Assembly (NCBI RefSeq): GCF_001405015.1 | Contig: NZ_CYZX01000003.1 | Coordinates: 113,137-137,136 of the forward strand | Reading direction: 5' to 3' | Length of the DNA stretch: 24,000 bases | DNA from: Clostridium disporicum | Lineage (GTDB): Bacteria; Bacillota; Clostridia; Clostridiales; Clostridiaceae | Shown: positions 12,711 to 23,989 of the stretch, one piece after another | Numbering within the stretch: position 1 is the first letter of the stretch | How the letters are laid out: each line of letters starts with the position of its first letter | Program-made: the position numbers and the translations under genes | The notes under the pieces: model-generated | Database searches by the model: none | Seen by the model: the letters and a program-made list of their open reading frames with translations, nothing else | What the model was told of the DNA's origin: nothing

Positions 12711-15700
12711 TTATATAACTTCTGCATTTAATTTTATTTCATTTATAATCTTCATAATTCTTCTTGCATCATCCATGTTATCCTTAAATAACGTAGTTAT
12801 ACTTCCTACTGTTCTAAATGGGTCTTCCTGAAGGATTCTATTATCTTCTATAAATCCGTTAGCAACTACATAATCAACTATAAGCTTAACAAAGTGGATT
12901 TGCTTAGTATTAAGATTCTCATTATTTAAAAACTCTGAAAATGCTTCATTAGCTGCTTGCCTGTCTAATCCTAATACTTTTCTCACAAGCTTACTTACAG
13001 GCATATTACCAAATTCTTTTTCATAATCAGCATTTGAGCCTAACTCATTCCACATAATAGCTTCTAAACTTTCTAAATCTTGCTTAGTAAGCTTTTTATT
13101 ATTTCTAAGATTAAATATAGCTAAATCATCTTTATGCTGATTTAAATAATGCTCAACTTTTTTTCTATAATTTTTAAGGTCATTAGCATTATACATTGCA
13201 TCATTTGATTCTTCATGAACTATAAAGTCTTCAAACTTAGTATAATAAATGGTTTGACCTGTTCTTTGAATATACTTTAGTAATTCCCTTAAAGCATCTC
13301 TAACTTCTTCAATCTCGAATATGTCTGTACTTTCCCAGAATTCCTCTGTCTTTACTTTCTCGATAATATACTTCTTTTCCTGAACCTGAGGAATAGTTCC
13401 AAGCTTAGAAAGGTCTTCTGCTGTATTTATAACCATTCTAATAGGCTTAGTTGCATTACCTCCCTGTAAATAAGCAAGTTCTATTAGATACATTACTAAG
13501 TCAAATCTTTTTGCTAACTCATCATCTTTTAATGATGTTATTAAAGGAGAGATATTCTGCTTTATCTCATTTATATCCATACTTCCAAGAGCATTCCATC
13601 TTTCTCTATTCTTATATTTATGGACTGAACTTAAATTCATTCTTACCCTGAAGTTATCTTCATTTAAGCTTTCTACTGATTTTAAAACAGCATCTAATAA
13701 TTCTTTTCTATAACTTTGATATTCTTCATCAGAATATCTTATATCTTGTAACTCTTTTATTATTTCAACTTTTTTATTAAAAATCTTTTCCGTTAGAGAT
13801 TCGCCTAAAGCTCCATCAAAGCCTTTTGGATTAGCTCTAAAGAATTCAAAGTTATTACAGAAATCAAAGATTAAGAATTCCTCTTTATCTAGACCTACAC
13901 CTAATAAATCTTCACAAAGCCTTGTACCTCTACCTATCATCTGCCAGAACTTTGATTTACTTCTTACTTTTTTAAAAAATACAAGATTTAATATTTCAGG
14001 TATATCGATTCCTGTATCAAGCATATCAACAGATACAGCTACCTGTGGTTCCTTATTCTTATCTGAAAAATCATCAATAATAGTATCAACATATTTAATG
14101 CTATAATCCACAACCTTCATAAAGTTTGCACCATACTCAGGATATATTTTATTAAATCTATCAACTATAGCCTGTGCATGTCTATGGCTCTTTGCAAAGA
14201 TAATAGTCTTCCCTAACTTATCTCCACCTTCAACTCTTAAACCATTATCAATAAGCTTATTTAATACTATATCAATAGTTTTTTCATTGAATAACCAGTT
14301 ATTTATAGCTGAATTTGATATCTCTTTATCTACATTATCATCATCATCAAAAGTATCTTCAAACTGTGCTTTATCTTCTTCAGATAACTCATCATATTTA
14401 ATACCATCTTCCATAACCTTAGACTTAACTTCTAAAGTTTTATAATCAACAAGATATTTATCTTGAACTGCTTTCTCTAATTCATAAGCAAAGGTAGGCA
14501 CACCACTTTCAAGGTCAAAAATTGAATAAGTATTTTTATCTATTTCATCCTTAGGGGTAGCCGTTAACCCTAAAAGCATAGAATCAAAGTAATCGAATAT
14601 AGCTCTATACTTTTTATAAATACTTCTATGTGATTCGTCTACTATTATTAAATCAAAATGACCAGGAGTGAATAACTTCTTACCGTCCTTAGTCTTTGTA
14701 TCATCTATAGCATTCATCATTGTAGGATAAGTTGAAAATATCATTCTTGATTCTTCTGGATTATCCTTATTATCTAAAAGATTACATAATGAAAGGTCTG
14801 GCAATAACTTTGAAAAGTTGTTCTTAGCCTGTTTAACTAATGCAGTTCTATCAGCTAAGAATAAAACATTCTTAATCCAGTTATGCTTTGCAAGTACATC
14901 TACTATAGAGATAGCAGTTCTTGTCTTTCCTGAACCTGTAGCCATAACTAAAAGCATTTTTCTTTGATTTGTGCTTAAAGATTCGCATACAGAAATTATT
15001 GCTTCCTTCTGATAATATCTGTTTGAAATATTGTCATTTATCTTAACATCATTAAAAGGCTTTCTAGAAACTCTTCTATCCACCATAAGCTGAAGCTCAT
15101 CTTTAGTAAAGAATCCGTAAACTCTTCTTTCAGAATACTTGTTATAATCATCCCATATATAAGTTTCAAATCCATTTGTAAAGAATATTACAGGTCTTTG
15201 CCCATACTGTTTTTCTAAACAGTCAGCATAAAGTTTTGCCTGTTGTTGTCCATCTTTAGGGTCTTTACTACTTCTCTTAGCTTCAACAACAGCTATAGGC
15301 TTGCCATTAGCTCCATAAAGTACATAATCAACAAATCCCACACCAGTTTCATTTGGCATTCCATGAACTTCTAACTCTTCTTCAATATCCTTATTAAACT
15401 CCCAGCCTGCAAGCTTAAGCTCAATATCAATATATCTCTTTCTAGTTTCAAATTCACTTATTTCATCTATATTAAAATCATAATTCTTAGCTTTAGCTTC
15501 TCTCTTCTTTGAAAGCTCTTTTCTTAAATCTTCATTCTGCTTTACAATCTCTTCTAATTTTTTATCCTTAGCACTTAGCTTTTCATAAAGATCCTTAAGC
15601 TCTTCAGGTCTAGTTCTCTTCTCTTCACCTTCTAATAAAATATCCTCGTCAAATGGTTCTGCCTTATAATCTCCATAACAATAATCTATCCAAGAAACAA

Positions 15701-16052
15701 ATTGATGAAGATTATGAAGTGCTAAAACAGCCTCTCCTCTTTTAATATTAGAATTAGTATGAACTGCAACATTTCCAAGCTTAACTATGTACTTAATAAG
15801 CGGTAGAAGTTTTGAATCTATAGTCTCAATAAAATTATTATCATAAATAAGACTTGATAAATTATCTTGATATGGAACATTTAAACTCTCATCAAAGCTA
15901 TATACCCATTTAACAGCTAACTCCAAAGCTCTTCTAGTAAGAATTGCACAAGTAGCTGGACTTACTAAAATACTCTTTTCAGCTTCTACACATGCAGTAT
16001 AAAAGCTCTTAAATATATCATTATCCTTTAAAAACTTAAAATTTCCGCCCAT
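12711..16052 (-). CDS. hsdR: Type I restriction endonuclease R subunit (HsdR) with an extra N-terminal DUF4145-like helical domain and an EcoEI-type C-terminal domain
   Basis: PD-(D/E)XK nuclease motif GFVDYVLY...IAVVEAKR; SF2 motor Walker A MATGSGKTRTA and DEAH-box IVDESHRS; QMIGRGTRL motif VI; C-terminal tail ending in a helical domain. GGGGA RBS. Confidence 0.92.
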   Translation of the reverse strand: MGGNFKFLKDNDIFKSFYTACVEAEKSILVSPATCAILTRRALELAVKWVYSFDESLNVPYQDNLSSLIYDNNFIETIDSKLLPLIKYIVKLGNVAVHTNSNIKRGEAVLALHNLHQFVSWIDYCYGDYKAEPFDEDILLEGEEKRTRPEELKDLYEKLSAKDKKLEEIVKQNEDLRKELSKKREAKAKNYDFNIDEISEFETRKRYIDIELKLAGWEFNKDIEEELEVHGMPNETGVGFVDYVLYGANGKPIAVVEAKRSSKDPKDGQQQAKLYADCLEKQYGQRPVIFFTNGFETYIWDDYNKYSERRVYGFFTKDELQLMVDRRVSRKPFNDVKINDNISNRYYQKEAIISVCESLSTNQRKMLLVMATGSGKTRTAISIVDVLAKHNWIKNVLFLADRTALVKQAKNNFSKLLPDLSLCNLLDNKDNPEESRMIFSTYPTMMNAIDDTKTKDGKKLFTPGHFDLIIVDESHRSIYKKYRAIFDYFDSMLLGLTATPKDEIDKNTYSIFDLESGVPTFAYELEKAVQDKYLVDYKTLEVKSKVMEDGIKYDELSEEDKAQFEDTFDDDDNVDKEISNSAINNWLFNEKTIDIVLNKLIDNGLRVEGGDKLGKTIIFAKSHRHAQAIVDRFNKIYPEYGANFMKVVDYSIKYVDTIIDDFSDKNKEPQVAVSVDMLDTGIDIPEILNLVFFKKVRSKSKFWQMIGRGTRLCEDLLGVGLDKEEFLIFDFCNNFEFFRANPKGFDGALGESLTEKIFNKKVEIIKELQDIRYSDEEYQSYRKELLDAVLKSVESLNEDNFRVRMNLSSVHKYKNRERWNALGSMDINEIKQNISPLITSLKDDELAKRFDLVMYLIELAYLQGGNATKPIRMVINTAEDLSKLGTIPQVQEKKYIIEKVKTEEFWESTDIFEIEEVRDALRELLKYIQRTGQTIYYTKFEDFIVHEESNDAMYNANDLKNYRKKVEHYLNQHKDDLAIFNLRNNKKLTKQDLESLEAIMWNELGSNADYEKEFGNMPVSKLVRKVLGLDRQAANEAFSEFLNNENLNTKQIHFVKLIVDYVVANGFIEDNRILQEDPFRTVGSITTLFKDNMDDARRIMKIINEIKLNAEVI

Positions 16053-16099
16053 GATTATCCCCTTAATTTTTTTAACATTATCCTAAGATAAGTATTTAA

Positions 16100-16115
16100 T
16101 TAAATTATATCATAG
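16100..16115 (-). promoter_or_regulatory. Putative hsdR promoter, extended -10 (TGATATAAT)
   Basis: The minus strand reads CTATGATATAATTTAA, about 50 nt upstream of the hsdR ATG. The same 16-mer recurs upstream of hsdM. Confidence 0.45.
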
Positions 16116-16197
16116 ATTGTACTTTTTAATCGTCAAAAAAACAAAAAGGCACATTATACTGGCGCCTAATCATCAATTGGGATTTCTTTTATTTTAC

Positions 16198-16218
16198 TTG
16201 GTGATATCCTCTCACCAA
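16198..16218 (-). terminator. Weak hairpin just after the Rpn-family gene stop
   Basis: 7-bp stem ttggtga / tcaccaa with a 7-nt loop. The T-tract on the minus strand is poor (GTAAAATAAAAG), so termination is probably leaky at best. Confidence 0.25.
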
Positions 16219-16221
16219 ATC

Positions 16222-17073
16222 TTATTTACAGTTATCTTCTCTTAATTTTTTTACTTCATCAATATCTAACCCTATCTTTTCTGATATAGTTTCATCATCA
16301 AGTATATCTAATAAAGAAATAGCATTTTTTATTTTCTCTTTCATGCTACCTCTTGCTTCTGCAGTATTAATCATATTGGCTCTTTCATGAAGCGACCTCT
16401 CTCTTTCCCAATAAATACTCATAGTATCCTCATCACTACTTAAGTACTCAATTCTCTTTTCAGCCTTTTCTATAGCAGGTTCCAAATTCATCAACTCCCT
16501 CAAAGTTGTTTCTGGTATATCCTTCTCTAAAAATGCTAACCATCTTTCAATAGCATTATCTTTATAGTTCTTATTTTGCTTACGCCTAAACTTAGGTAAC
16601 TCTAAAAAATGTATTTCAACCATATCAGTTAGCATATAATCTTTTTCAATATCCTCCCAAAGGTGAAATGATGATTGATAACCTTCCGTATTTAAGTAAT
16701 CAAAATCTAATATGTTTATTGTAATTACTTTTTCAAGCTTAGTATAGTCATCACCTTGTTTAATATTCTCAAGATACATCTTTCCCCAATAGAATAAAGT
16801 TCTTTTATCCATATTCCCTTGGTCAGTCAACTGCACCTCTATATCAATATTTTCACCTTTAGCAGTTCGTGCTCTTACATCTATTATACCAGTTTTATCA
16901 TTTATGACTTCTTTAGTTAATTGCTTATTATCTATAATTTCAATTTCTATTATCGGTTCTTTATTAGTTCTTTTTAATACTGCATTAATGAATGATATTA
17001 AGATATCTTCATTACCTTTTTCACCAAACACTTTTTTAAAAATGAAGTCATTTAGTGGTTTAATTTTTCTCAT
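16222..17073 (-). CDS. Rpn-family recombination-promoting nuclease / PD-(D/E)XK putative transposase (YhgA-like, PDDEXK_2)
   Basis: N-terminal MRKIKPLNDFIFKKVFGEKGNEDILISFINAVL is the family hallmark. Nuclease core GIIDVRARTAKGENIDIEVQL shows the D...E-x-Q pattern. Start moved to the ATG at 17073, because GAGGTG lies 6 nt upstream while the ORF-track start is a GTG inside that RBS. Confidence 0.8.
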   Translation of the reverse strand: MRKIKPLNDFIFKKVFGEKGNEDILISFINAVLKRTNKEPIIEIEIIDNKQLTKEVINDKTGIIDVRARTAKGENIDIEVQLTDQGNMDKRTLFYWGKMYLENIKQGDDYTKLEKVITINILDFDYLNTEGYQSSFHLWEDIEKDYMLTDMVEIHFLELPKFRRKQNKNYKDNAIERWLAFLEKDIPETTLRELMNLEPAIEKAEKRIEYLSSDEDTMSIYWERERSLHERANMINTAEARGSMKEKIKNAISLLDILDDETISEKIGLDIDEVKKLREDNCK

Positions 17074-17147
17074 TATATTCACCTCATAGGTTTTATCTTT
17101 AGTTTAAATTGTTGACTTATCTTAAAGTTTATAAACATCACTTTTTT

Positions 17148-17693
17148 CTATGATAAATTATATTCTAATAAGTCATTATTTATCTTTATATTTCCATATT
17201 TTAAATTTTTATTTAGAAATTCTCTAGCATATGGTTGTAAATTATACGCAAAACTTGAACCACTCCTACTAATAGTTGATGCTAAATATATTATTTTCTT
17301 ATTCTCTAAAGCAGCCTTTCTTCCATCCGAATAACTTATATATCCTGATGATTTAAATATCTTATTTGTATCATCATAAAATGTTTTAATAATTAGTTGC
17401 ATCTCATCGGGGCTAATTTGATTTTTCATATATTTAATAGCTATTTTCTTTGAATTTATTAATTTACTAACCATCATCTCACTTATAAATACTATTATAC
17501 TTAATATATAATATGCAGATGCTATAATAAGTCCTAAACTAATATATACTTGATACTTTTCTTTAAACTCTCCTAGATACATCAATTCTATTATATTTTT
17601 AGGTAATATAGTTATTAATAATGTTGTAAAAAATACTACTCCAACAAGCTCTTTAATTTTAAACTTATCTACTATCGTTTTTATTAATTCCAT
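17148..17693 (-). CDS. Small 2-TM membrane protein, tentatively superinfection-exclusion B (SieB)-like
   Basis: TM1 is around aa 16-31 and TM2 around aa 48-75, followed by a soluble tail of about 105 aa (ISPDEMQLIIKTFY...ENKKIIYL...YNLQPYAREFL). Layout and size recall Firmicute SieB-family proteins, but this rests on memory only. GGGGG RBS. Starts 41 nt after the hsdS stop, with no hairpin between. Confidence 0.4.
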   Translation of the reverse strand: MELIKTIVDKFKIKELVGVVFFTTLLITILPKNIIELMYLGEFKEKYQVYISLGLIIASAYYILSIIVFISEMMVSKLINSKKIAIKYMKNQISPDEMQLIIKTFYDDTNKIFKSSGYISYSDGRKAALENKKIIYLASTISRSGSSFAYNLQPYAREFLNKNLKYGNIKINNDLLEYNLS

Positions 17694-17734
17694 TTATCCC
17701 CCTATATATTTTTATTAAGTTAATATCTTATCAA

Positions 17735-18862
17735 TTAAAATAACTCTCCTTTGAATGCTTTTTGCATTAATGAATTAAAGTTATCTTCTAATTCATTTAA
17801 ACTCTTTTCCATTTCAAGTTTTAATTTATCGACTTGTTCAACGAAATCAGCAAATTGATTTTGAAGCTCTATTGGTGGTACAATAACTTTTTGTTCACTC
17901 AATATTTTAAGGTTTATATTCTTTTGTGCTGACTCTGGTGCTGAATCTTCCAATATTTTTTGCAAGAATGACATCCAAAATTGAATAAACATATTATTAG
18001 TTTTTTCATTTGGAATGAAAGCAACTACACTATCTGGGAAACAAGCGTCAAAAGTTAATATACTTGTTTTTGCAATGTTAGCAGCAATAGTAATACATAA
18101 CGTTCCTTTATCCCACATTTTACTCTGCTTAAGTCCAAATTCTGAATAAGTCTGTGTATATTCTTTCAAATATATACCTGCATTTGCAATATCTCCTGTT
18201 TGAACTAAAGGATATGGACCACCTAATAATTCTGGAGCATTTCTTGGTCTATGTTTAGATTTCCCTCTTGCTAACTCACCTAACTCATTTAGCTTCTCTT
18301 TTTCCCATCCCTTTGAATTAGTAACTGGATCACCAAACATCTCGATAAATTGTGATTTAACTAATTCGTCTAAAGCTTCTATTTGTTCTTTTCTTTTATC
18401 TATTAATTCTTGTGCTTTATTTATAATATTTTTAATTTTTTTTTGAATTTCTAACGGTAACTTAGGTATCTCTAATTCTTCTAAAGACTCTCTCTGTATA
18501 TGTGGTATAGTAGCACCTGTGCATTTCTCTCTTAAATACGCTGATTTACTTCTAAGAAATAACCCGCAAAATTCTGTATCCATTTCATTATTATCTTTAG
18601 TTAACTTAGCTAGTGTACTTCCTATAGCTCCTTCTAAACCAAATCCTATAGTCCCAGCATTAGCTCCATCCCAAGCTATAATAATATCCTCTTTATTCAC
18701 TATTACATACTTTTTATCATTTTCACAATATTTTAAGTTAATATCATTTCTTAAATCATCTATTTGAATAAATCTTATGGAAGAATCCGTTCTTTCTTCT
18801 ACTTGTTCTACCTTCTTTCCTTTTGTTATTTTAAAAAGGTCCTTTATTTTAATATACTCCAT
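17735..18862 (-). CDS. hsdS: Type I restriction-modification specificity subunit (HsdS), two target-recognition domains
   Basis: Two TRD-like halves separated by the conserved helix LEIQKKIKNIINKAQELIDKRKEQIEALDELVKSQF, and ending with LQNQFADFVEQVDKLKLEMEKSLNELEDNFNSLMQKAF. Start moved to the ATG at 18862, 4 nt after the hsdM stop, with GGGGAG 7 nt upstream. Confidence 0.9.
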   Translation of the reverse strand: MEYIKIKDLFKITKGKKVEQVEERTDSSIRFIQIDDLRNDINLKYCENDKKYVIVNKEDIIIAWDGANAGTIGFGLEGAIGSTLAKLTKDNNEMDTEFCGLFLRSKSAYLREKCTGATIPHIQRESLEELEIPKLPLEIQKKIKNIINKAQELIDKRKEQIEALDELVKSQFIEMFGDPVTNSKGWEKEKLNELGELARGKSKHRPRNAPELLGGPYPLVQTGDIANAGIYLKEYTQTYSEFGLKQSKMWDKGTLCITIAANIAKTSILTFDACFPDSVVAFIPNEKTNNMFIQFWMSFLQKILEDSAPESAQKNINLKILSEQKVIVPPIELQNQFADFVEQVDKLKLEMEKSLNELEDNFNSLMQKAFKGELF

Positions 18863-18866
18863 ACCT

Positions 18867-20339
18867 CTACTCCCCAATCATCTCTGCTAACTCTTCAATT
18901 CCAGCAGTGATTTCCATTTCTAGTTCTCTTATTCTTAGCATTATTTCTTGTGGTGAGTCGTAGTGAACTTCTTCGTATTCTATTTCTTTGTATTTATTTA
19001 TTGATAAATCATATCCGTTATCTCTTATTTCTTCTACTGGTACAAAGAAGCTTTGCTCTGTTCTTTTTCTATCTACTTCTTTATCTAGGTTGCTGAATCT
19101 TTCTACTATATCATTAATGTCATTATCTTCTATTGGATTTCTCTTATCATCTAATGAATATCCGTCAGCTTTCATATCATAGAACCATACTTTATCTGTT
19201 CCGCCTGTACCTGTCTTTGTGAATATCATAATTGCTGTAGATACTCCTGCATATGGTTTAAATACTCCTGATGGCATTGAGATAATAGCTTCTAGCTTAT
19301 GGTTTTCTACTATTTCTTTTCTTATAGATTTATGTCCTCCTGTTGAACCAAATAAAACTCCATCTGGAACTATTGAAGCACATCTTCCACCTGTCTTTAA
19401 AATTCTTAAGAATAACGCTAAGAATAAAAGCTCAGTTTTCTTTGTTTTAGTTGTCTTAAGTAAATCTGCTGATACTGCTTCATAGTCTAAACTTCCCTTA
19501 AATGGAGGATTTGCAAGAACTAAAGTAAACTTATCTTTATCTGTATTTACTTCTGATAATGAATCCTTATATTCAATATTAGGATTATCAACACCATGAA
19601 GCATCATATTCATAGCACCGATTCTAAGCATAGTTCTATCCATATCAAAACCATAGAACATTCCATTATTAAAATGCTCCTTTAAACCTTGAACTAAGAA
19701 AAGTTCAGGATGATTTTCTCTTAAGTAAGCCTGAGAAGATACTAAGAACCCTGCTGAACCTGCTGCTGGATCAACTATTATATCTTCAGGAGTTGGCTTC
19801 ATAAGCTTAACTATCATATCGATAATATGTCTTGGAGTTCTAAACTGCCCATTAGTACCTGCTGTGGCAACCTTTGAAAGTAAATATTCATAAAGGTCAC
19901 CTTTAGTATCTTTATCATCCTCCATATCTATATTATCAATACCATCAACTATCTTACTTAGCATAAGTGGAGTTGGAATCTTAAATATTGCATCTCCCAT
20001 ATACTTTGCATAAGCTGAATCTGCATTATTGTGAAGATTTTTTATAAAAGGAAATACCTCTTCAGATACTACCTTATACATTTCTCCTGCTTCAAAATTC
20101 TTAAACTTGCTCCATCTTAATTGTTGTTTATCTTCTGGAAAAGTCCTATCAAAATCTATACCTAAAAGTACAGCATCATTTTCCTTAACAATTTCCTTAT
20201 CATCAAGACCTTTAATAAATAAAAGATATGTAAATTGTTCTATTACCTCTAATGGGTTAGTTATACCTCCAGTCCAAAATGTTTCCCATATTTTATCAAC
20301 TTTACTTCTTAATTCGCCTGTAATCATATTTTCCTCCAA
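18867..20339 (-). CDS. hsdM: Type I restriction-modification N6-adenine DNA methyltransferase subunit (HsdM)
   Basis: HsdM_N-like N-terminus (LRSKVDKIWETFWTGG); AdoMet motif I VDPAAGSAGFL; catalytic motif IV LANPPFKGS. GGAGGA RBS. Confidence 0.95.
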   Translation of the reverse strand: MEENMITGELRSKVDKIWETFWTGGITNPLEVIEQFTYLLFIKGLDDKEIVKENDAVLLGIDFDRTFPEDKQQLRWSKFKNFEAGEMYKVVSEEVFPFIKNLHNNADSAYAKYMGDAIFKIPTPLMLSKIVDGIDNIDMEDDKDTKGDLYEYLLSKVATAGTNGQFRTPRHIIDMIVKLMKPTPEDIIVDPAAGSAGFLVSSQAYLRENHPELFLVQGLKEHFNNGMFYGFDMDRTMLRIGAMNMMLHGVDNPNIEYKDSLSEVNTDKDKFTLVLANPPFKGSLDYEAVSADLLKTTKTKKTELLFLALFLRILKTGGRCASIVPDGVLFGSTGGHKSIRKEIVENHKLEAIISMPSGVFKPYAGVSTAIMIFTKTGTGGTDKVWFYDMKADGYSLDDKRNPIEDNDINDIVERFSNLDKEVDRKRTEQSFFVPVEEIRDNGYDLSINKYKEIEYEEVHYDSPQEIMLRIRELEMEITAGIEELAEMIGE

Positions 20340-20355
20340 ATTTCTACTTTAATAT

Positions 20356-20371
20356 TTAAATTATATCATAG
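20356..20371 (-). promoter_or_regulatory. Putative hsdM-hsdS promoter, extended -10 (TGATATAAT)
   Basis: The minus strand reads CTATGATATAATTTAA, about 25-30 nt upstream of the hsdM ATG. It is identical to the 16-mer upstream of hsdR. Confidence 0.45.
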
Positions 20372-20620
20372 GTTAAGTGAATCTAATTTATTTTATTAAA
20401 ATATAGACCATCTTATATCTTTTTGAAAAATTATCTTTTCAAAGACATCATTAAGTCTTTCTCCATCACCTCTATTTGTTGTTTACTGTAAAACCAATAT
20501 AAAATTGAGTAACTAATTACTCCCTATTAGCAAGTATTAATATTCGTCCCTTTATTTTAATATTTGTAAAGATAACTCTTTTATAAAATTCTCATAGCTA
20601 TAACCTAGTTTTTATATCTT

Positions 20621-20892
20621 GACTTACATTTTTCTTACCTTTGACTTACGTAAGAAGCTGGTCTTAGCCCTTGAAATCACTAGTGACTTACATGACTTAC
20701 GTAAATCCTATATACATTATCTATATATTTTTCAATAAATAAAAAAATTTTCCATAAAAATATATATCTCTAATTAGGTAAGTCATGTAAGTCATTAATA
20801 ACTTTTTCTTTGTAAACCTAGTGATGATAAGTGTTTAGCTATGACTTACATACCTAAGAAGTCATGTAAGTCAACGTAAGTCAATGTAAGTC
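20621..20892. repeat. Iteron array (GACTTAC / GTAAGTC, 10 perfect copies in two clusters) flanking an AT-rich core; candidate replication origin of the element
   Basis: GACTTAC occurs at 20621, 20643, 20685, 20694 and 20843. GTAAGTC occurs at 20778, 20787, 20866, 20876 and 20886. There are tandem 9-10-bp units, such as three copies of (a/c)(t/g)GTAAGTCA at 20864-20893. An almost pure A/T stretch at 20705-20777 separates the clusters. Confidence 0.6.
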
Positions 20893-22791
20893 AAAAGCTA
20901 TTAATGCAGATTTATTAGAAACTTCTCTCTCTTTAAAATCTCTTTTTATTTCCTCTTCATCCTCTATTGCTATATTTAATTTGATACAGTTTGTCATAGC
21001 TCCAAATATTCTTGTTTGATGTACATATCTTCCCTGTGAATTCTTGGTTATAAGCCCTACCTTGTACAACTTATCTTTAACTGCATTAAAATTAATCCTA
21101 TGTGAATTTAGCATTTTCATTAATACTGTTTTATTTATAAAACATTCTTTCTTTATATTGTCTAATTTACCCCATATTTCACCACTTTCATTTTCTTTAA
21201 ATTTATTAATATTCTGCCCAATCCAATCTAGTATTAGGTCATATATGTTTTTAGTAACATCTTTCTCGCTATTTTTAGGAATAAATTCTGTTATGTCACT
21301 AATTTCTAGTTTTTCATCTCCAAATATAAAGTTGCTAAGCTCATCCCCTAAAAGAATTGCTGCTGTGCTTAATACTTGTTTATCTGTAATATCTGAACTT
21401 TCTTGCACCATCTTAATAAATTCAGAGTATATTATGTTAACCTCTTTATTAGTAATTAAGTTATCTATAAAGTCTTTTCCAGCAAAACCGTAATTTTCTC
21501 TTACAAAGTTTGCCGTATAATTCCCATCTTCTATTACACTTTCTTTTGCTTCTATTTCGATAACTCTATTTTTAACACCTCCACCAGAGTTTTCTTGAAC
21601 TATTGGCTCTTCACCAGAAAACATAAATATATTTTGCCAAGTCCCCTGAACATCAACGCCACCATAAGACTTACCTCTACTTCTATCTATACCTTCAGTA
21701 AGTTGCATTATTAAAGAATCAAAGCTTTCATATTTATCTTTTATAATCTGAAGCTCATCAAAGGCTATTGGTAAGCTATTCATAAAAGAAGCGTATCTTC
21801 CCATAGCTACTGCTGTGGAATTTAATGTCTTAACAAGCTTGCCTAACGAGGGGTCACCCCATATACTCATAGCTACCATTAATCCAACAGTTTTCCCTGC
21901 TCCAGTACCTCCCCAAAGATGTATAATAAAAGGTAACGTTCCTGTTATTTTAAGTAAACAGCTAGCAAAAGAAGCCGCCATAAGTATTTTTACGATTTTA
22001 CTTTCACTTCGTAGCTTTATACAAAAGCTTTTCCAAGCTTCATAATCTCCTTTTTCTTTTATACTATCGTAAACTTCTTTAAAAGCAATATCTCCATCAT
22101 ATTTTAAATTTTCTGCATATGGTGAAAACTCTTTATCTATCCATCCTACTTTGCTTATACTTCTTGATACAGGTATCTTATCCACATTTGTATCTAATAC
22201 ATCTGTTATATATGTGACTAAATTGCCTGCATTGTTTGAATTTACGCCTATTCCTCTATCAGCAATGTTTATTATAATAGATTTATTTGCAATTACACTT
22301 CTTTCGATAACAACCTCCTTCCAAATATTATCCTTATAAAAAGCAATCTTAACCTTCTCCATACCAGTTTCTATATTTACAAGCCTCTCTACTGGTAATA
22401 TAGGGTGGGGACAAGCTACTTCTTTTACTTGTTGAATATTCTTCAATTCTGTTTTCCATACACCACTATCATCTGCAATCCACTCTCCACATTGTAAGTC
22501 CTCTAATGGTGGATTAGAAAAATCTATAAAATTATTACTTTCCTTAGGCTTAATATCTTTCATCTGTTGCTTCTTATAAGCCTTTTCCACAGCCTTAAAC
22601 TGTTTAGTAATATTTAAATCAGAAGCTCTATTAAAAAGCTTAGCTAAAATAATCTCTCGCTCAACTTCATCATCTATTGAATAAATATACTCAAAATTCT
22701 TTTTATCAATAATCTCATTTTTACCCATATTCAAGATTAAACTTTCCATAAAACCTAAATTAATTAATTCATCAGCAAAATTATTATTCAA
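20881..22791 (-). CDS. DUF927-type P-loop NTPase / replicative helicase of a mobile element
   Basis: Walker A LWGGTGAGKT and Walker B IAFDELQ. Size and layout match DUF927 primase-helicase proteins of Firmicute islands and prophages. TTG start at 22791 with GGGAGGAA 6 nt upstream. Overlaps the upstream gene by 8 nt. Confidence 0.8.
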   Translation of the reverse strand: MNNNFADELINLGFMESLILNMGKNEIIDKKNFEYIYSIDDEVEREIILAKLFNRASDLNITKQFKAVEKAYKKQQMKDIKPKESNNFIDFSNPPLEDLQCGEWIADDSGVWKTELKNIQQVKEVACPHPILPVERLVNIETGMEKVKIAFYKDNIWKEVVIERSVIANKSIIINIADRGIGVNSNNAGNLVTYITDVLDTNVDKIPVSRSISKVGWIDKEFSPYAENLKYDGDIAFKEVYDSIKEKGDYEAWKSFCIKLRSESKIVKILMAASFASCLLKITGTLPFIIHLWGGTGAGKTVGLMVAMSIWGDPSLGKLVKTLNSTAVAMGRYASFMNSLPIAFDELQIIKDKYESFDSLIMQLTEGIDRSRGKSYGGVDVQGTWQNIFMFSGEEPIVQENSGGGVKNRVIEIEAKESVIEDGNYTANFVRENYGFAGKDFIDNLITNKEVNIIYSEFIKMVQESSDITDKQVLSTAAILLGDELSNFIFGDEKLEISDITEFIPKNSEKDVTKNIYDLILDWIGQNINKFKENESGEIWGKLDNIKKECFINKTVLMKMLNSHRINFNAVKDKLYKVGLITKNSQGRYVHQTRIFGAMTNCIKLNIAIEDEEEIKRDFKEREVSNKSALIAFDLH

Positions 22792-23350
22792 TATAATTTC
22801 CTCCCATTCTAAGCTTGTTTATTATTTTCTTATTATTTATTAAAAATTGTAGCTTGTCTCTTTCATCTCCTTCTATAAAAATATCTAGGTAATAATCTAT
22901 TTGTTCTAACATCATTGCTGTCTCATCATCATTCTTTTCTGCTAGGTATCTTCTATAATCGCTTAGCAAAATAAATATTTCATTTTCTACTCTTTTGAAT
23001 TCTTCTAATATAAGCATTTTTTGCTTGTACTTATTTGGGAATTTAAATTCAGATTTGCATTTATTCTTACTTAAATTAAGACCTAATGCTAAAGAATCAT
23101 TTATATATTGTGCTGCTTTATATGGCTTTATATTAAGTATCTTAGATACAAGAGTTATTGAATCTCCCGTTTCTCCACATCCAAAGCATTTAAATATTTG
23201 TTTCTTTTCAGATATGCTGAAAGATGGTGTGTTTTCAGAATGAAATGGACATAAACATTTATTAGCTCTATTAAGATTTATACCTACTAATTTTGCAACA
23301 TCAATTATGTTGCTTCTTGTTTTAATTTCCTTTATAAGCTCATTGACCAT
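22784..23350 (-). CDS. CHC2 zinc-finger (DnaG-type) primase-like protein, no TOPRIM domain
   Basis: CPFHSENTPSFSISEKKQIFKCFGCGETGD is the canonical zf-CHC2 primase finger. At 188 aa the protein is too short for a catalytic TOPRIM domain. AGGAG RBS. Confidence 0.8.
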   Translation of the reverse strand: MVNELIKEIKTRSNIIDVAKLVGINLNRANKCLCPFHSENTPSFSISEKKQIFKCFGCGETGDSITLVSKILNIKPYKAAQYINDSLALGLNLSKNKCKSEFKFPNKYKQKMLILEEFKRVENEIFILLSDYRRYLAEKNDDETAMMLEQIDYYLDIFIEGDERDKLQFLINNKKIINKLRMGGNYIE

Positions 23351-23486
23351 ATTGCTCCTATGAAATTTCTAGAAATTTAAATATAAATTATTAAAGTACT
23401 CATTTAGTAAATATGATTGAATTTTTTAATTTTGCTTATATAAAATAAAAAATTTAATATTTTATAAAATTAATCTTTAAAGCATT

Positions 23487-23531
23487 ACAGCTCTAAACAT
23501 AGTATTTTACACTGTTTAGAGCTGTTTTTAT
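23487..23531 (+). terminator. Strong hairpin with a T-tract only on the plus strand (orientation opposite to both flanking genes)
   Basis: Perfect 13-bp stem acagctctaaaca (23487-23499) / tgtttagagctgt (23513-23525). On the plus strand TTTTTA follows; on the minus strand AATGCTTTAAAG follows. Confidence 0.4.
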
Positions 23532-23590
23532 CTATTATTTTTGTATATAACAAATAATTTGTATAATAAAATTTTCAAATAATCTTCTTA

Positions 23591-23989
23591 CTAATCTTCT
23601 ACATCAATTAAATTACTTTCATATTCTATTTTTCCAGTAAGTACACCGTCATAGAAAGCTTGTTTATTATCAATAAAATTAATACACTCATTAATTTCTT
23701 TAATTTGATTTAATAACGCTTCTTTTGATTTATTAAGCATCTCTTTTCTTTCTGGAATTGTAGACGGTCCTTGTAAGCAATAATTCATATATAATTTCAT
23801 ATCTTTAATACTCATACCACATTTCTTTAAACATTGTAGTCCCTTTAACCATGCAACATTTTTTTCATCAAAAATACGATAATTATTTTTATCTCTTTTT
23901 ACATTAGGCACTAAGCCTTCTTTACAATAATACTTTAATGTTTCATATGATATCCCAACTTGCTTACTAACCTCTTTCATTGTGTACAT
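23591..23989 (-). CDS. MerR family transcriptional regulator
   Basis: N-terminal HTH YTMKEVSKQVGISYETLKYYCKEGLVPNVKRDKNNYRIFDEKNVAWLKGLQCLKKCGMSIKDMK followed by a coiled-coil dimerisation helix. The 132-aa size is typical. Confidence 0.85.
   Translation of the reverse strand: MYTMKEVSKQVGISYETLKYYCKEGLVPNVKRDKNNYRIFDEKNVAWLKGLQCLKKCGMSIKDMKLYMNYCLQGPSTIPERKEMLNKSKEALLNQIKEINECINFIDNKQAFYDGVLTGKIEYESNLIDVED

What the first reader, a model, noticed from the sequence alone, without database searches (positions are those of the whole stretch)
20621..20892. Iteron clusters flanking an AT-rich core, starting at the helicase stop codon: candidate origin of replication
There are ten perfect copies of the 7-mer GACTTAC or its complement GTAAGTC within 272 bp.

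- Cluster A (20621-20700) has four copies in one orientation.
- An almost pure A/T stretch follows at 20705-20777.
- Cluster B (20778-20892) has mostly the inverse orientation. It includes three consecutive 10-bp units (20864-20893), one helical turn apart, that overlap the last codons and the TGA of the DUF927 gene.
- Some copies form the palindrome CTTAC/GTAAG (20645-20654).

Staphylococcal pathogenicity islands have the same layout: two iteron sets flanking an AT-rich melt region immediately 3' of the rep helicase gene.
Basis: partly seen in the sequence, partly recalled or inferred. Interest (0 to 1): 0.65.

Follow-up and report, generated by a model that had tools for sequence, protein, structure and literature searches.

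The report
Phage-type replication origin beside its helicase
The repeat cluster is real and is the replication origin matched to the neighbouring initiator-helicase gene, the same design as in staphylococcal pathogenicity islands, but here it lies in a decayed prophage fragment of a low-GC bacterium, so it is a well-supported but fairly ordinary find.

Summary
The real repeat unit is the 10-mer TGACTTACRT. It has nine perfect copies and one one-mismatch copy, all within 20620-20893 and none elsewhere in the 24 kb. Two inverted inner pairs flank a 71-bp core of 12.7% GC. One copy spans the TGA of the adjacent DUF927+HTH_56 gene.

That protein matches the SaPIbov1 Rep initiator-helicase and SCCmec Cch in both sequence and predicted fold.

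In 58 of 64 distinct homologous loci, mostly about 40-kb temperate phages, the 385 bp around the helicase stop show the same layout. Only 11 of 1,280 control windows do. The repeat word differs by lineage and tracks one residue of the helicase's C-terminal winged-helix domain: Gln592 goes with GTAAG in 23 of 23 arrays, window included, and non-Gln goes with GTTAG, GTTGG or other words. This links the repeats to this protein.

The interpretation as an origin is supported, but the element is not a SaPI or PICI. No integrase or packaging genes are present, and a 27-residue fragment of the phage SNF2 gene shows a prophage remnant next to a type I restriction-modification cluster. The helicase is under purifying selection (dN/dS 0.20). 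Whether the origin still fires is untested.

Verdict: new member of a known kind, moderate interest.

The parts
20620..20893 (.). Whole origin: 10 iterons in two sets around an AT-rich core. It begins inside the last codons of the helicase gene.
   Evidence: It is positionally homologous to the region after the helicase stop in phage relatives.
20884..20893 (-). Iteron TGACTTACAT, inside the coding region (last codons, ...D-L-H).
20874..20883 (-). Iteron TGACTTACGT, containing the helicase TGA stop (20881-20883).
20864..20873 (-). Iteron TGACTTACAT, third of the 10-bp-spaced triplet. A partial copy (AGAAGTCA, 20857-20864) follows it.
20842..20851 (+). Iteron TGACTTACAT, a lone copy in the opposite orientation. 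It is 10/10 conserved in the related locus L004.
20785..20794 (-). Inner iteron TGACTTACAT (helicase-proximal inner pair, 9-bp spacing).
   Evidence: Conserved 9/10 in L004.
20776..20785 (-). Inner iteron TGACTTACCT (one mismatch), abutting the AT core.
20705..20775 (.). AT-rich core, 71 bp at 12.7% GC. It is the presumed DNA-unwinding region and carries the family-conserved landmark TATGGAAAAT (read on the - strand).
   Evidence: In the relatives, the median gap between the inverted iteron sets is 93.5 bp at 23% GC.
20693..20702 (+). Inner iteron TGACTTACGT (distal inner pair, abutting the AT core).
20684..20693 (+). Inner iteron TGACTTACAT (distal inner pair, 9-bp spacing).
   Evidence: Conserved 9/10 in L004.
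20642..20651 (+). Outer iteron TGACTTACGT. It forms the palindrome CTTACGTAAG (20645-20654) with a partial inverted copy.
20620..20629 (+). Outermost iteron TGACTTACAT. An identical 2,984-bp contig from another sample begins exactly here.
20881..22791 (-). Initiator-helicase gene (636 aa). Domains are DUF927 (residues 107-379) and a C-terminal Cch-type winged helix, HTH_56 (residues 511-607, nt 20971-21261). Gln592 (codon 21016-21018) is the residue that co-varies with the iteron word.
22784..23350 (-). Gene for a 188-aa protein that has only the DnaG-type CHC2 zinc-ribbon domain (no TOPRIM domain). It overlaps the helicase start by 8 nt. The same gene pair is found in the phage relatives.
20402..20482 (-). 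Pseudogene fragment: 27 residues matching residues about 136-162 of the roughly 500-aa SNF2-type helicase that lies 1-2 kb downstream of the origin in intact phages. It marks the truncated end of the prophage remnant.
   Evidence: up to 70% identity, E 3.5e-8, 59 phage queries hit in this 300-bp bin.

Best explanation
The region 20620-20893 is the replication origin matched to the adjacent DUF927/HTH_56 initiator-helicase. Both come from the early replication module of a temperate siphovirus of low-GC Firmicutes.

The proposed mechanism is taken from the SaPI Rep model.
1. The C-terminal winged-helix domain of the helicase binds the 10-bp iterons (TGACTTACRT).
2. The two inverted inner pairs (20684/20693 and 20776/20785) position one helicase ring on each side of the 71-bp AT-rich core.
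3. The core is melted without a separate loader (a self-loading, MCM-like AAA+ helicase).
4. The two rings move apart, and priming involves the upstream zinc-ribbon protein and/or the host primase.

What is shown here: the repeat anatomy, the homology of the protein to SaPIbov1 Rep, the conservation of the layout across the helicase family, and the covariation of protein and DNA.

What is inferred: binding, melting and firing.

In this genome the module is a prophage remnant (zinc-ribbon gene, helicase, origin and a fragment of the next phage gene) lying next to a type I restriction-modification cluster. The origin is intact in sequence and its initiator is under purifying selection, but whether it still fires is not known.
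For: 1. Enrichment. Ten copies lie in 274 bp, and the 10-mer occurs nowhere else in 24 kb plus a further 8.8 kb.

2. The initiator.
- Pfam gives DUF927 (2.3e-39) and HTH_56 'Cch helix-turn-helix' (1.2e-11).
- PHROG 8841 'DNA primase/helicase' matches at 3.4e-153.
- By sequence it matches PDB 8tch at E 7.8e-24 and Cch 5dgk at 2.4e-12. describes 8tch as the SaPIbov1 replication-initiation protein with helicase activity.
- The predicted fold matches 8tch at 1.7e-19 and 5dgk at 2.9e-14.

3. The layout meets the published SaPI ori definition (PMC9371898). PMC6092414 describes the same rule for PICIs.

4. Comparative evidence.
- Of 64 distinct regions after the stop of helicase homologues (36-74% identity), 58 have at least 5 copies of one 7-mer within 385 bp. 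Only 11 of 1,280 control windows from the same loci do.
- 55 of the 58 have both orientations, and 53 have the largest gap flanked by opposite orientations. The median gap is 93.5 bp at 23% GC.
- Copy positions relative to the stop codon match those in the window, and the alignment shows shared non-iteron landmarks.

5. Protein-DNA covariation.
- The iteron word differs by lineage: GTAAGAC, GTTAGAC, GTTGGAC, GGTAAGT, GGTGTAAC, AGGTGGA, TGTTAGCA, and GTAAGTCA in the window.
- The motif H-Q-T at residues 591-593 goes with GTAAG in 23 of 23 distinct iteron arrays, including the window and L004. The 24th H-Q-T protein, L047, has no array because a gene follows the stop directly. None of the 24 non-H-Q-T cases has GTAAG in the iteron core.
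- L055 and L067 differ at 15 residues in total, 3 of them in HTH_56 (F589M, I590V, S592Q), and their iteron changes from GTTAGAC to GTAAGAC. The same S/Q swap with the same iteron change occurs independently in L027 versus L020.
- Residues 590-595 are a beta-strand following helix 568-577 of the winged helix in the model.

6. Between the window and the related chromosomal locus L004, iteron positions are 71% identical and spacer positions 49% (Fisher p 5e-4). Four-fold degenerate sites are 57% identical.

7. Helicase dN/dS is 0.20 overall (ATPase core 0.11, HTH_56 0.115). Its dS of 0.92 is like that of the neighbouring chromosomal genes (0.69-1.27). All family-invariant residues are present.
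Against: - There is no experimental evidence of binding or replication.
- The module is truncated. There is no integrase, repressor or structural gene within the window or within 8.8 kb beyond it. The other early phage replication genes seen in intact relatives (Sipho_Gp157, the AAA protein, DUF669, SNF2 helicase) are absent or fragmentary.
- The zinc-ribbon protein has no catalytic primase domain.
- As a whole the origin is no better conserved against L004 than four-fold degenerate sites (59% against 57%). In L004 several outer iterons have decayed. Selection on origin function is therefore shown only weakly.
- The structural model is of moderate quality (mean pLDDT 69, ATPase core poor).
Confidence: 0.8

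Rival explanations
1. Dead relic. The sequence is an origin by descent, but it has been silent since the prophage decayed. The helicase gene persists for another reason, or only because the decay is recent.
For: - The prophage is reduced to two genes plus a 27-residue fragment of the next gene.
- In the related locus L004 the zinc-ribbon gene is gone and four of ten iteron positions are degenerate.
- Overall origin identity to L004 (59%) is about the same as at four-fold degenerate sites (57%).
- No sigma-70-like promoter was found upstream of the zinc-ribbon gene on the coding strand.
Against: - Nine of the ten 10-mers are perfect in the window.
- Iteron positions are more conserved than spacers (71% against 49%, p 5e-4).
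- Helicase dN/dS is 0.20, and 0.115 in the DNA-binding domain, which is not expected for a decaying gene.
- The Gln592-GTAAG match is intact.
Confidence: 0.25
2. Origin of a SaPI/PICI-type phage satellite: a small helper-dependent island that excises, replicates from this origin and is packaged.
For: The Rep-type helicase and the origin layout are those of SaPIs and PICIs. Defence-type cargo follows the origin (type I R-M and a SieB-family protein), much as interference or accessory genes follow the origin in PICIs.
Against: - No integrase, Stl/Rpr-type repressor, xis, terS or capsid-remodelling genes occur in the window or in the 8.8 kb beyond it.
- No flanking direct repeats of att type were found, and no tRNA.
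- The closest relatives are 36-42 kb temperate phages with an integrase, a cI/cro pair and an endolysin.
- A fragment of a phage SNF2 gene lies between the origin and the R-M genes.
Confidence: 0.04
3. Domesticated anti-phage device. The helicase-origin pair is kept beside the restriction-modification/SieB cluster for one of two reasons. It may act as a decoy for related infecting phages, like the phage-encoded-resistance (Per) origins of dairy phages. Alternatively, it may amplify the neighbouring defence genes in place when an initiator is supplied or induced.
For: - The helicase is under purifying selection even though the rest of the phage is lost. Its synonymous divergence is like that of neighbouring chromosomal genes, which is consistent with long residence.
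- It sits directly next to a type I R-M system and a SieB-family gene.
- Cloned phage origins are known to confer copy-number-dependent resistance (PMC6356513).
Against: - This is purely circumstantial.
- Only two such chromosomal loci were found.
- Orthology of the two loci is not proven. They could be independent insertions of related phages, because their flanking gene order differs.
- A single chromosomal copy is a poor decoy.
Confidence: 0.08
4. Not an origin. The array is instead an operator array, a terminator for the helicase or hsdM operons, or a packaging (pac/cos) or recombination site.
For: The array lies between two co-directional genes. An unrelated group of viral contigs carries arrays of the very same word just upstream of a terminase gene pair. 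Arrays of this kind are therefore not necessarily origins.
Against: - No promoter excess and no terminator were found in 20250-21000.
- In the helicase family the array always follows the helicase stop, far from any terminase.
- Its word co-varies with a residue of the helicase's own winged-helix domain.
- The hsdM start is 280 bp beyond the last iteron and has its own 22-nt element shared with hsdR.
Confidence: 0.04

Closest known systems
SaPI / PICI Rep-ori replicons (SaPIbov1, SaPI1, SaPI5; Ubeda et al. 2007 and 2012 as cited in PMC9371898; PMC6092414)
   Same: - The initiator is a self-loading DUF927/MCM-like helicase with a C-terminal winged helix.
- The origin starts right after the rep reading frame.
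- It has 6-12 short iterons in two sets around an AT-rich centre.
- At least two iterons on each side point in opposite directions.
- The window protein matches SaPIbov1 Rep in sequence and in predicted fold.
   Different: - The host is a low-GC, Clostridium-like bacterium.
- The unit is 10 bp rather than 5-6 bp.
- The upstream partner is a bare DnaG zinc ribbon, not a Pri primase.
- No integrase, repressor or packaging genes are present.
- The relatives are full-size temperate phages, not about 15-kb satellites.
Replication modules of about 36-42 kb temperate siphoviruses from gut and anaerobe metagenomes, and of a Clostridium polynesiense prophage (PHROG 8841 helicase)
   Same: - The gene pair is the same: a zinc-ribbon gene overlapping the DUF927/HTH_56 helicase gene.
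- The origin has the same position and internal layout, down to copy positions and the ATGG(G/A)AAAT landmark.
- The same downstream SNF2 gene is present, here as a fragment.
   Different: The window keeps only about 3 kb of the phage. Its iteron word, GTAAGTCA, was not found in any of the 80 phage loci of this family and is shared only with L004. Helicase identity to the phages is at most 53%.
SCCmec Cch helicase (PDB 5dgk)
   Same: The DUF927 core and the HTH_56 domain named after Cch.
   Different: The match to Cch is weaker than to SaPIbov1 Rep. The SCCmec partner genes (the CCPol-MP pair, PMC7581432) are absent here. From my own knowledge, not checked here, no iteron origin has been defined for SCCmec.
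Iteron plasmids (RepA/Rep_3 type, e.g. pSC101, F, P1)
   Same: Repeated initiator-binding sites lie next to an AT-rich unwinding region.
   Different: From general knowledge, the plasmid iterons are about 17-22 bp, tandem and in one orientation on one side of the AT region, with DnaA boxes and a small dimeric Rep that recruits the host DnaB. Here the units are 10 bp, in inverted sets on both sides, and the initiator is itself the helicase. The window has no Rep_3-type gene.
Per (phage-encoded resistance) origins of Streptococcus thermophilus and Lactococcus phages
   Same: A non-coding phage origin lies downstream of a primase/helicase-type gene, and it can persist in cryptic prophages (PMC6356513).
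   Different: The Per effect needs many copies on a plasmid. No such test exists here, and sequence relatedness to those origins was not examined.

Membership tests
SaPI/PICI-type Rep-ori replication origin (architecture) | The initiator next to the origin is a Rep-family helicase (DUF927 / MCM-like AAA+) with a C-terminal winged-helix domain. | tested here: met
   Pfam DUF927 and HTH_56. PDB 8tch (SaPIbov1 Rep) E 7.8e-24 by sequence and 1.7e-19 by fold.
SaPI/PICI-type Rep-ori replication origin (architecture) | The origin lies immediately downstream of the rep open reading frame. | tested here: met
   One iteron spans the TGA at 20881-20883, and the array runs 20620-20893.
SaPI/PICI-type Rep-ori replication origin (architecture) | Six to twelve short iterons lie in two sets around a central AT-rich region. 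| tested here: met
   Ten iterons (4 + 6) surround a 71-bp core of 12.7% GC. The definition is from PMC9371898.
SaPI/PICI-type Rep-ori replication origin (architecture) | [quoted passage not shown] | tested here: met
   20684 and 20693 are on the + strand, 20776 and 20785 on the - strand. A 31-nt inverted repeat brackets the core.
SaPI/PICI-type Rep-ori replication origin (architecture) | Rep binds its own iterons specifically. | not testable with these tools
   The support is indirect: the iteron word co-varies with residue 592 of the winged-helix domain across 47 distinct arrays, with two independent S/Q swaps.
SaPI/PICI-type Rep-ori replication origin (architecture) | The origin plus pri/rep supports autonomous replication. 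| not testable with these tools
   This needs a cloning experiment.
SaPI / PICI element (phage satellite) | An integrase and a specific att site, a master repressor (Stl/Rpr), xis, a size of about 10-15 kb, and packaging or interference genes. | tested here: not met
   None of these genes occurs in the window or in the 8.8 kb beyond it. There is no flanking direct repeat and no tRNA.
Temperate siphovirus replication module (PHROG 8841 family) | A zinc-ribbon gene overlaps a DUF927/HTH_56 helicase gene, followed by the origin and then an SNF2-type helicase gene. | tested here: met
   The gene pair and origin are present. The SNF2 gene is present only as a 27-residue fragment at 20402-20482.
Temperate siphovirus replication module (PHROG 8841 family) | The module is embedded in a complete prophage (integrase, cI/cro, structural and lysis genes). 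| tested here: not met
   The flanks are housekeeping genes and a type I R-M cluster. It is therefore a remnant.
Iteron-plasmid origin (Rep_3/RepA type) | Tandem, same-orientation iterons of about 17-22 bp beside a Rep_3-type initiator gene. | tested here: not met
   The units are 10 bp in inverted sets. There is no Rep_3 gene and no plasmid match.

The most novel reading that the evidence does not exclude
The helicase-origin pair is not debris but a domesticated unit. It would be kept under selection in the chromosome, beside a type I restriction-modification/SieB cluster, after the rest of the phage was lost. It would work against related phages in one of two ways. It could capture their initiator or mis-fire on their origins (a chromosomal version of phage-encoded resistance). 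Or it could amplify the adjacent defence genes in place upon infection. The evidence that leaves this open is as follows: helicase dN/dS is 0.20, its synonymous divergence equals that of neighbouring host genes, and iteron positions are preferentially conserved between two species.
Probability: 0.08. Interest if true: 0.7.

Novelty: new member of a known kind. Interest (0 to 1): 0.35.

Why it matters
For this window, the result settles what the repeat cluster is, and it shows that the surrounding 3 kb is a fossil of a temperate phage lying next to a defence cluster.

Two points reach beyond the window.

1. [quoted passage not shown] Here it is the rule in a large family of full-size temperate phages: 58 of 64 loci examined.

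2. Within that family the iteron word tracks a single residue of the helicase's winged helix (Gln with GTAAG, Ser/Ala/Cys with GTTAG, Asn with GTTGG in two distinct loci). This gives a directly testable recognition rule for Rep-type initiators, and a way to predict which phages and remnants share origin specificity.

Neither point changes how such origins are thought to work.

Tried and rejected
- DNA similarity searches of 20300-23400 against phage and plasmid records found nothing.
- A single-protein scan of reference genomes gave only one distant locus. The same query found nothing in viral contigs or in JGI metagenomes. An alignment-based scan was needed to reach the 80 phage loci.
- Rfam and tRNA scans of the window were empty.
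- Promoter and terminator scans showed no excess in or around the array, and no coding-strand promoter upstream of the zinc-ribbon gene.
- The search for att-like direct repeats flanking 12.25-23.6 kb found none. It turned up only a 22-nt element shared by the hsdR and hsdM leaders.
- I expected the whole origin to be better conserved than neutral sites between the window and L004. It is not (59% against 57%). Only the iteron positions are.
- Binned comparison of HTH-domain identity for same-iteron versus different-iteron pairs gave only a modest difference (for example 0.89 against 0.83). The clear signal came from individual residues.
- A search for phages with the window's exact iteron pair found arrays only in an unrelated group with no homologous helicase, so no candidate cognate phage was identified.
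- The PICI and plasmid-iteron readings were rejected on gene content (see the membership tests).
Full report
**1. The observation**

The 7-mer GACTTAC/GTAAGTC occurs 14 times in the window, against 1.45 expected (the largest of 100 shuffles gave 6).

Extending the word shows that the unit is the 10-mer TGACTTACRT. Nine perfect copies and one one-mismatch copy all lie within 20620-20893. The rest of the window has no perfect copy. An identical contig from another sample extends 8.8 kb beyond the window end and adds a single further TGACTTAC.

The layout on the + strand is:
- four copies reading TGACTTACRT, at 20620, 20642, 20684 and 20693;
- a 71-bp core at 20705-20775, with 9 G/C (12.7% GC, against 28.6% for the window);
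- copies on the opposite strand at 20776 and 20785, one + copy at 20842, and a 10-bp-spaced triplet at 20864, 20874 and 20884.

A 31-nt inverted repeat (20674-20704 / 20774-20804) brackets the core. The unit at 20874-20883 contains the TGA of the 636-codon ORF 20881-22791 (- strand). The unit at 20884-20893 encodes its last residues. Only 'almost pure A/T' is slightly overstated.

**2. The neighbouring genes**

All relevant genes are on the - strand.
- MerR-family regulator: 23591-23989.
- A 188-aa protein with only the DnaG-type CHC2 zinc ribbon: 22784-23350. It has no TOPRIM domain.
- The 636-aa protein with DUF927 (2.3e-39) and HTH_56, the 'Cch helix-turn-helix' (1.2e-11): 20881-22791.
- After the repeat region, a type I restriction-modification cluster: hsdM 18867-20339, hsdS 17735-18877 and hsdR 12711-16052.
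- A SieB-family gene (17148-17693) and a PDDEXK_2 gene (16222-17082) are inserted between hsdS and hsdR.
- Ordinary chromosomal genes follow.

The 636-aa protein matches PHROG 8841 'DNA primase/helicase' at 3.4e-153. In the PDB it matches 8tch (E 7.8e-24) and SCCmec Cch 5dgk (E 2.4e-12) by sequence. describes 8tch as the 'initiation of replication protein with helicase activity encoded by pathogenicity island SaPIBov1'. A moderate-quality AlphaFold model (mean pLDDT 69) finds the same two structures first (E 1.7e-19 and 2.9e-14). The gene next to the repeats therefore encodes a Rep-family initiator-helicase.

**3. Comparison with the published origin design**

PMC9371898 summarises SaPI origins as follows:
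- six to twelve iterons immediately downstream of the rep reading frame;
- an AT-rich region at the centre;
- at least two iterons on each side pointing in opposite directions;
- recognition by the winged-helix domain in Rep's C-terminal domain;
- ATP-independent binding and melting, with no loader.

PMC6092414 gives the same rule for PICIs of Gram-positive and Gram-negative bacteria. The window region meets every structural clause.

**4. Comparative test**

The protein search found 2,428 homologues at E <= 1e-10. Many sit on contigs of about 42 kb. An alignment-based scan of viral contigs returned 80 loci. Two contexts were read in full.
- A Clostridium polynesiense prophage.
- A 41.9-kb contig with endolysin, integrase, cI-like and cro-like genes, Sipho_Gp157, the zinc-ribbon gene, the DUF927 gene, a gap of about 300 bp, small genes, an SNF2-type helicase and a methyltransferase.

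These are full-size temperate siphoviruses, not satellites.

I then examined the 385 bp around the helicase stop in 64 distinct loci.
- 58 carry at least five copies of one 7-mer. Only 11 of 1,280 control windows from the same loci do.
- 55 of the 58 have both orientations.
- 53 have the largest inter-copy gap flanked by opposite orientations. The median gap is 93.5 bp at 23% GC.
- In most loci the 7-mer is absent from the remaining 5-9 kb.

Copy positions relative to the stop codon are nearly superimposable on the window's. The window has -13, -3, +7, +32, +86, +95, then the core, then +181, +190, +232, +254. L053 has +3, +24, +35, +78, +87, +96, then the core, then +200, +208, +250, +261, +282.

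A multiple alignment shows shared non-iteron landmarks, such as (C/T)ATGG(G/A)AAAT at the edge of the core. The exceptions are L047, where a gene follows directly, and L040, which has GC-rich tandem repeats.

**5. Link between the repeats and this protein**

The repeat word differs between lineages: GTAAGAC, GTTAGAC, GTTGGAC, GGTAAGT, TGTAAGAC, GGTGTAAC, AGGTGGA, TGTTAGCA. The window and L004 have GTAAGTCA.

Tabulating the word against the helicase sequence gives a clean rule at window residues 591-593.
- H-Q-T goes with GTAAG in all 23 distinct iteron arrays, window and L004 included.
- One further H-Q-T protein, L047, has no array.
- H-(S/A/C/F/H)-T goes with GTTAG.
- H-N-T goes with GTTGG in the two distinct loci tabulated, L072 and L081. 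It goes with GTTAG in L085.
- More divergent motifs go with unrelated words.

L055 and L067 differ at 15 residues in total. Three of these lie in HTH_56 (F589M, I590V, S592Q), and their iterons are GTTAGAC and GTAAGAC. The same S/Q difference with the same one-base iteron difference occurs independently in L027 versus L020, in the other main clade.

In the model, residues 590-595 form a beta-strand following helix 568-577 of the C-terminal domain, which is the wing region of a winged helix.

These counts are not phylogenetically independent. Even so, the repeated swaps are hard to explain unless this domain reads the repeats. In the window, Gln592 (codon 21016-21018) and the GTAAG iterons are a matched pair.

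**6. What kind of element this is**

- No integrase, repressor, excisionase, terminase or structural gene lies in the window or in the 8.8 kb beyond its end. The flanks there are housekeeping genes.
- No tRNA, Rfam family or att-like flanking repeat was found.
- Searching the window with all ORFs of the phage loci found a 27-residue match at 20402-20482 (- strand), up to 70% identical (E 3.5e-8). It matches residues about 136-162 of the roughly 500-aa SNF2 helicase that lies 1-2 kb beyond the origin in intact phages.

The module is therefore a prophage remnant: the zinc-ribbon gene, the helicase, the origin and a scrap of the next conserved gene. It abuts the hsdM leader. It is not a SaPI or PICI.

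**7. Is the remnant alive?**

The only close relative (74% protein identity) is on a 9.5-kb contig, L004, from a related organism.
- Its flanking genes are 81-82% identical in DNA to those of the window's genome, and the helicase-origin stretch is 77.7% identical.
- There the zinc-ribbon gene is missing and the gene order differs.
- Helicase dS (0.92) is within the range of the neighbouring chromosomal genes (0.69-1.27).
- dN/dS is 0.20 overall, 0.11 in the ATPase core and 0.115 in HTH_56.
- All family-invariant residues are kept in both proteins.

In the origin, iteron positions are 71% identical and spacers 49% (Fisher p 5e-4), while four-fold degenerate sites are 57% identical. The inner pairs and the lone + copy are best kept, and several outer copies are degenerate in L004.

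This argues for continued selection on the protein and on some iterons. It does not prove that the two loci are orthologous rather than independent insertions. The origin as a whole is no better conserved than neutral sites.

**8. Alternatives**

- An operator or terminator role is not supported. There is no promoter excess and no terminator, and the hsdM leader has its own element, shared with hsdR.
- A packaging-site reading was raised by a side finding. About 20 unrelated viral contigs carry arrays of the same word ATGTAAGTCAT just upstream of a terminase gene pair, and they have no homologue of the window's helicase. That shows the word itself is not diagnostic. In the helicase family, however, the array is tied to the helicase stop and to residue 592, not to a terminase.

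**9. Verdict**

With high confidence the region is the cognate, Rep-type origin of the adjacent initiator-helicase.

It is a new member of a known kind. Its closest functional model is the SaPI/PICI origin, and its closest relatives by descent are the origins of temperate phages of Clostridium-like hosts. The window's copy sits in a decayed prophage. Whether it still fires is open.

The wider by-products are the prevalence of this origin design in true phages and the one-residue recognition rule. They are modestly interesting and directly testable.

Noticed in passing
L099 9212-9541; L136 3930-4294; L130 3020-3315; L126 1826-2188 and about 15 other viral loci: Viral contigs with no homologue of the window's helicase carry arrays of the very same word (ATGTAAGTCAT / ATGACTTACAT). 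The copies are 9-bp spaced, in both orientations, around an AT-rich stretch. The arrays lie just upstream of a 151-aa + 507-aa gene pair whose large member matches terminase large subunit (phrog_2, 5.9e-40). They may be a pac/cos site or another origin. The shared word is probably coincidence.
   Followed up: partly
window 20620-23603 (= L003): A 2,984-bp contig from another sample (ERR634987) is identical to the window. It begins exactly at the outermost iteron and ends 13 bp inside the MerR gene. The assembly graph therefore breaks at both edges of the zinc-ribbon/helicase/origin module, which suggests the module sits in more than one context in that sample.
   Followed up: no
window 16097-16118 and 20353-20374: A 22-nt repeat (91% identical, TAATTAAATTATATCATAGATT) lies just upstream of the hsdR start and of the hsdM start. 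It is a likely shared control element of the two transcription units of the type I restriction-modification system.
   Followed up: no
window 16222-17693: A SieB-family (superinfection exclusion, PF14163) gene and a PDDEXK_2 'nuclease family transposase' gene are inserted between hsdS and hsdR. The cluster 12711-20339 therefore looks like a small composite defence island.
   Followed up: no
window 20741-20750 and the aligned positions in L007-L073: The non-iteron landmark (C/T)ATGG(G/A)AAAT is conserved at the helicase-proximal edge of the AT core across the phage origin family and in the window. In phages, CGGAAAAA precedes the distal inner iteron pair. These could be a priming site or a second protein's site.
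   Followed up: no
L004 7124-7261 versus L002 4305-10095: In the related organism the helicase gene follows a Na+/H+ exchanger gene directly. In the window's genome, 5.8 kb lie between the orthologous exchanger and the helicase. That stretch holds MFS, LMWPc, phosphatase, flavodoxin, aldo-keto reductase, MerR and zinc-ribbon genes. The GntR/ABC operon is also on the other side, so the locus has been rearranged.
   Followed up: partly
window 22476-22791 (helicase residues 1-106): The N-terminal 106 residues of the helicase evolve much faster than the rest: 45% identity to L004 and dN/dS 0.52, against 0.11 for the ATPase core. The function of this domain is unknown here, as it is for SaPI Rep.
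   Followed up: no
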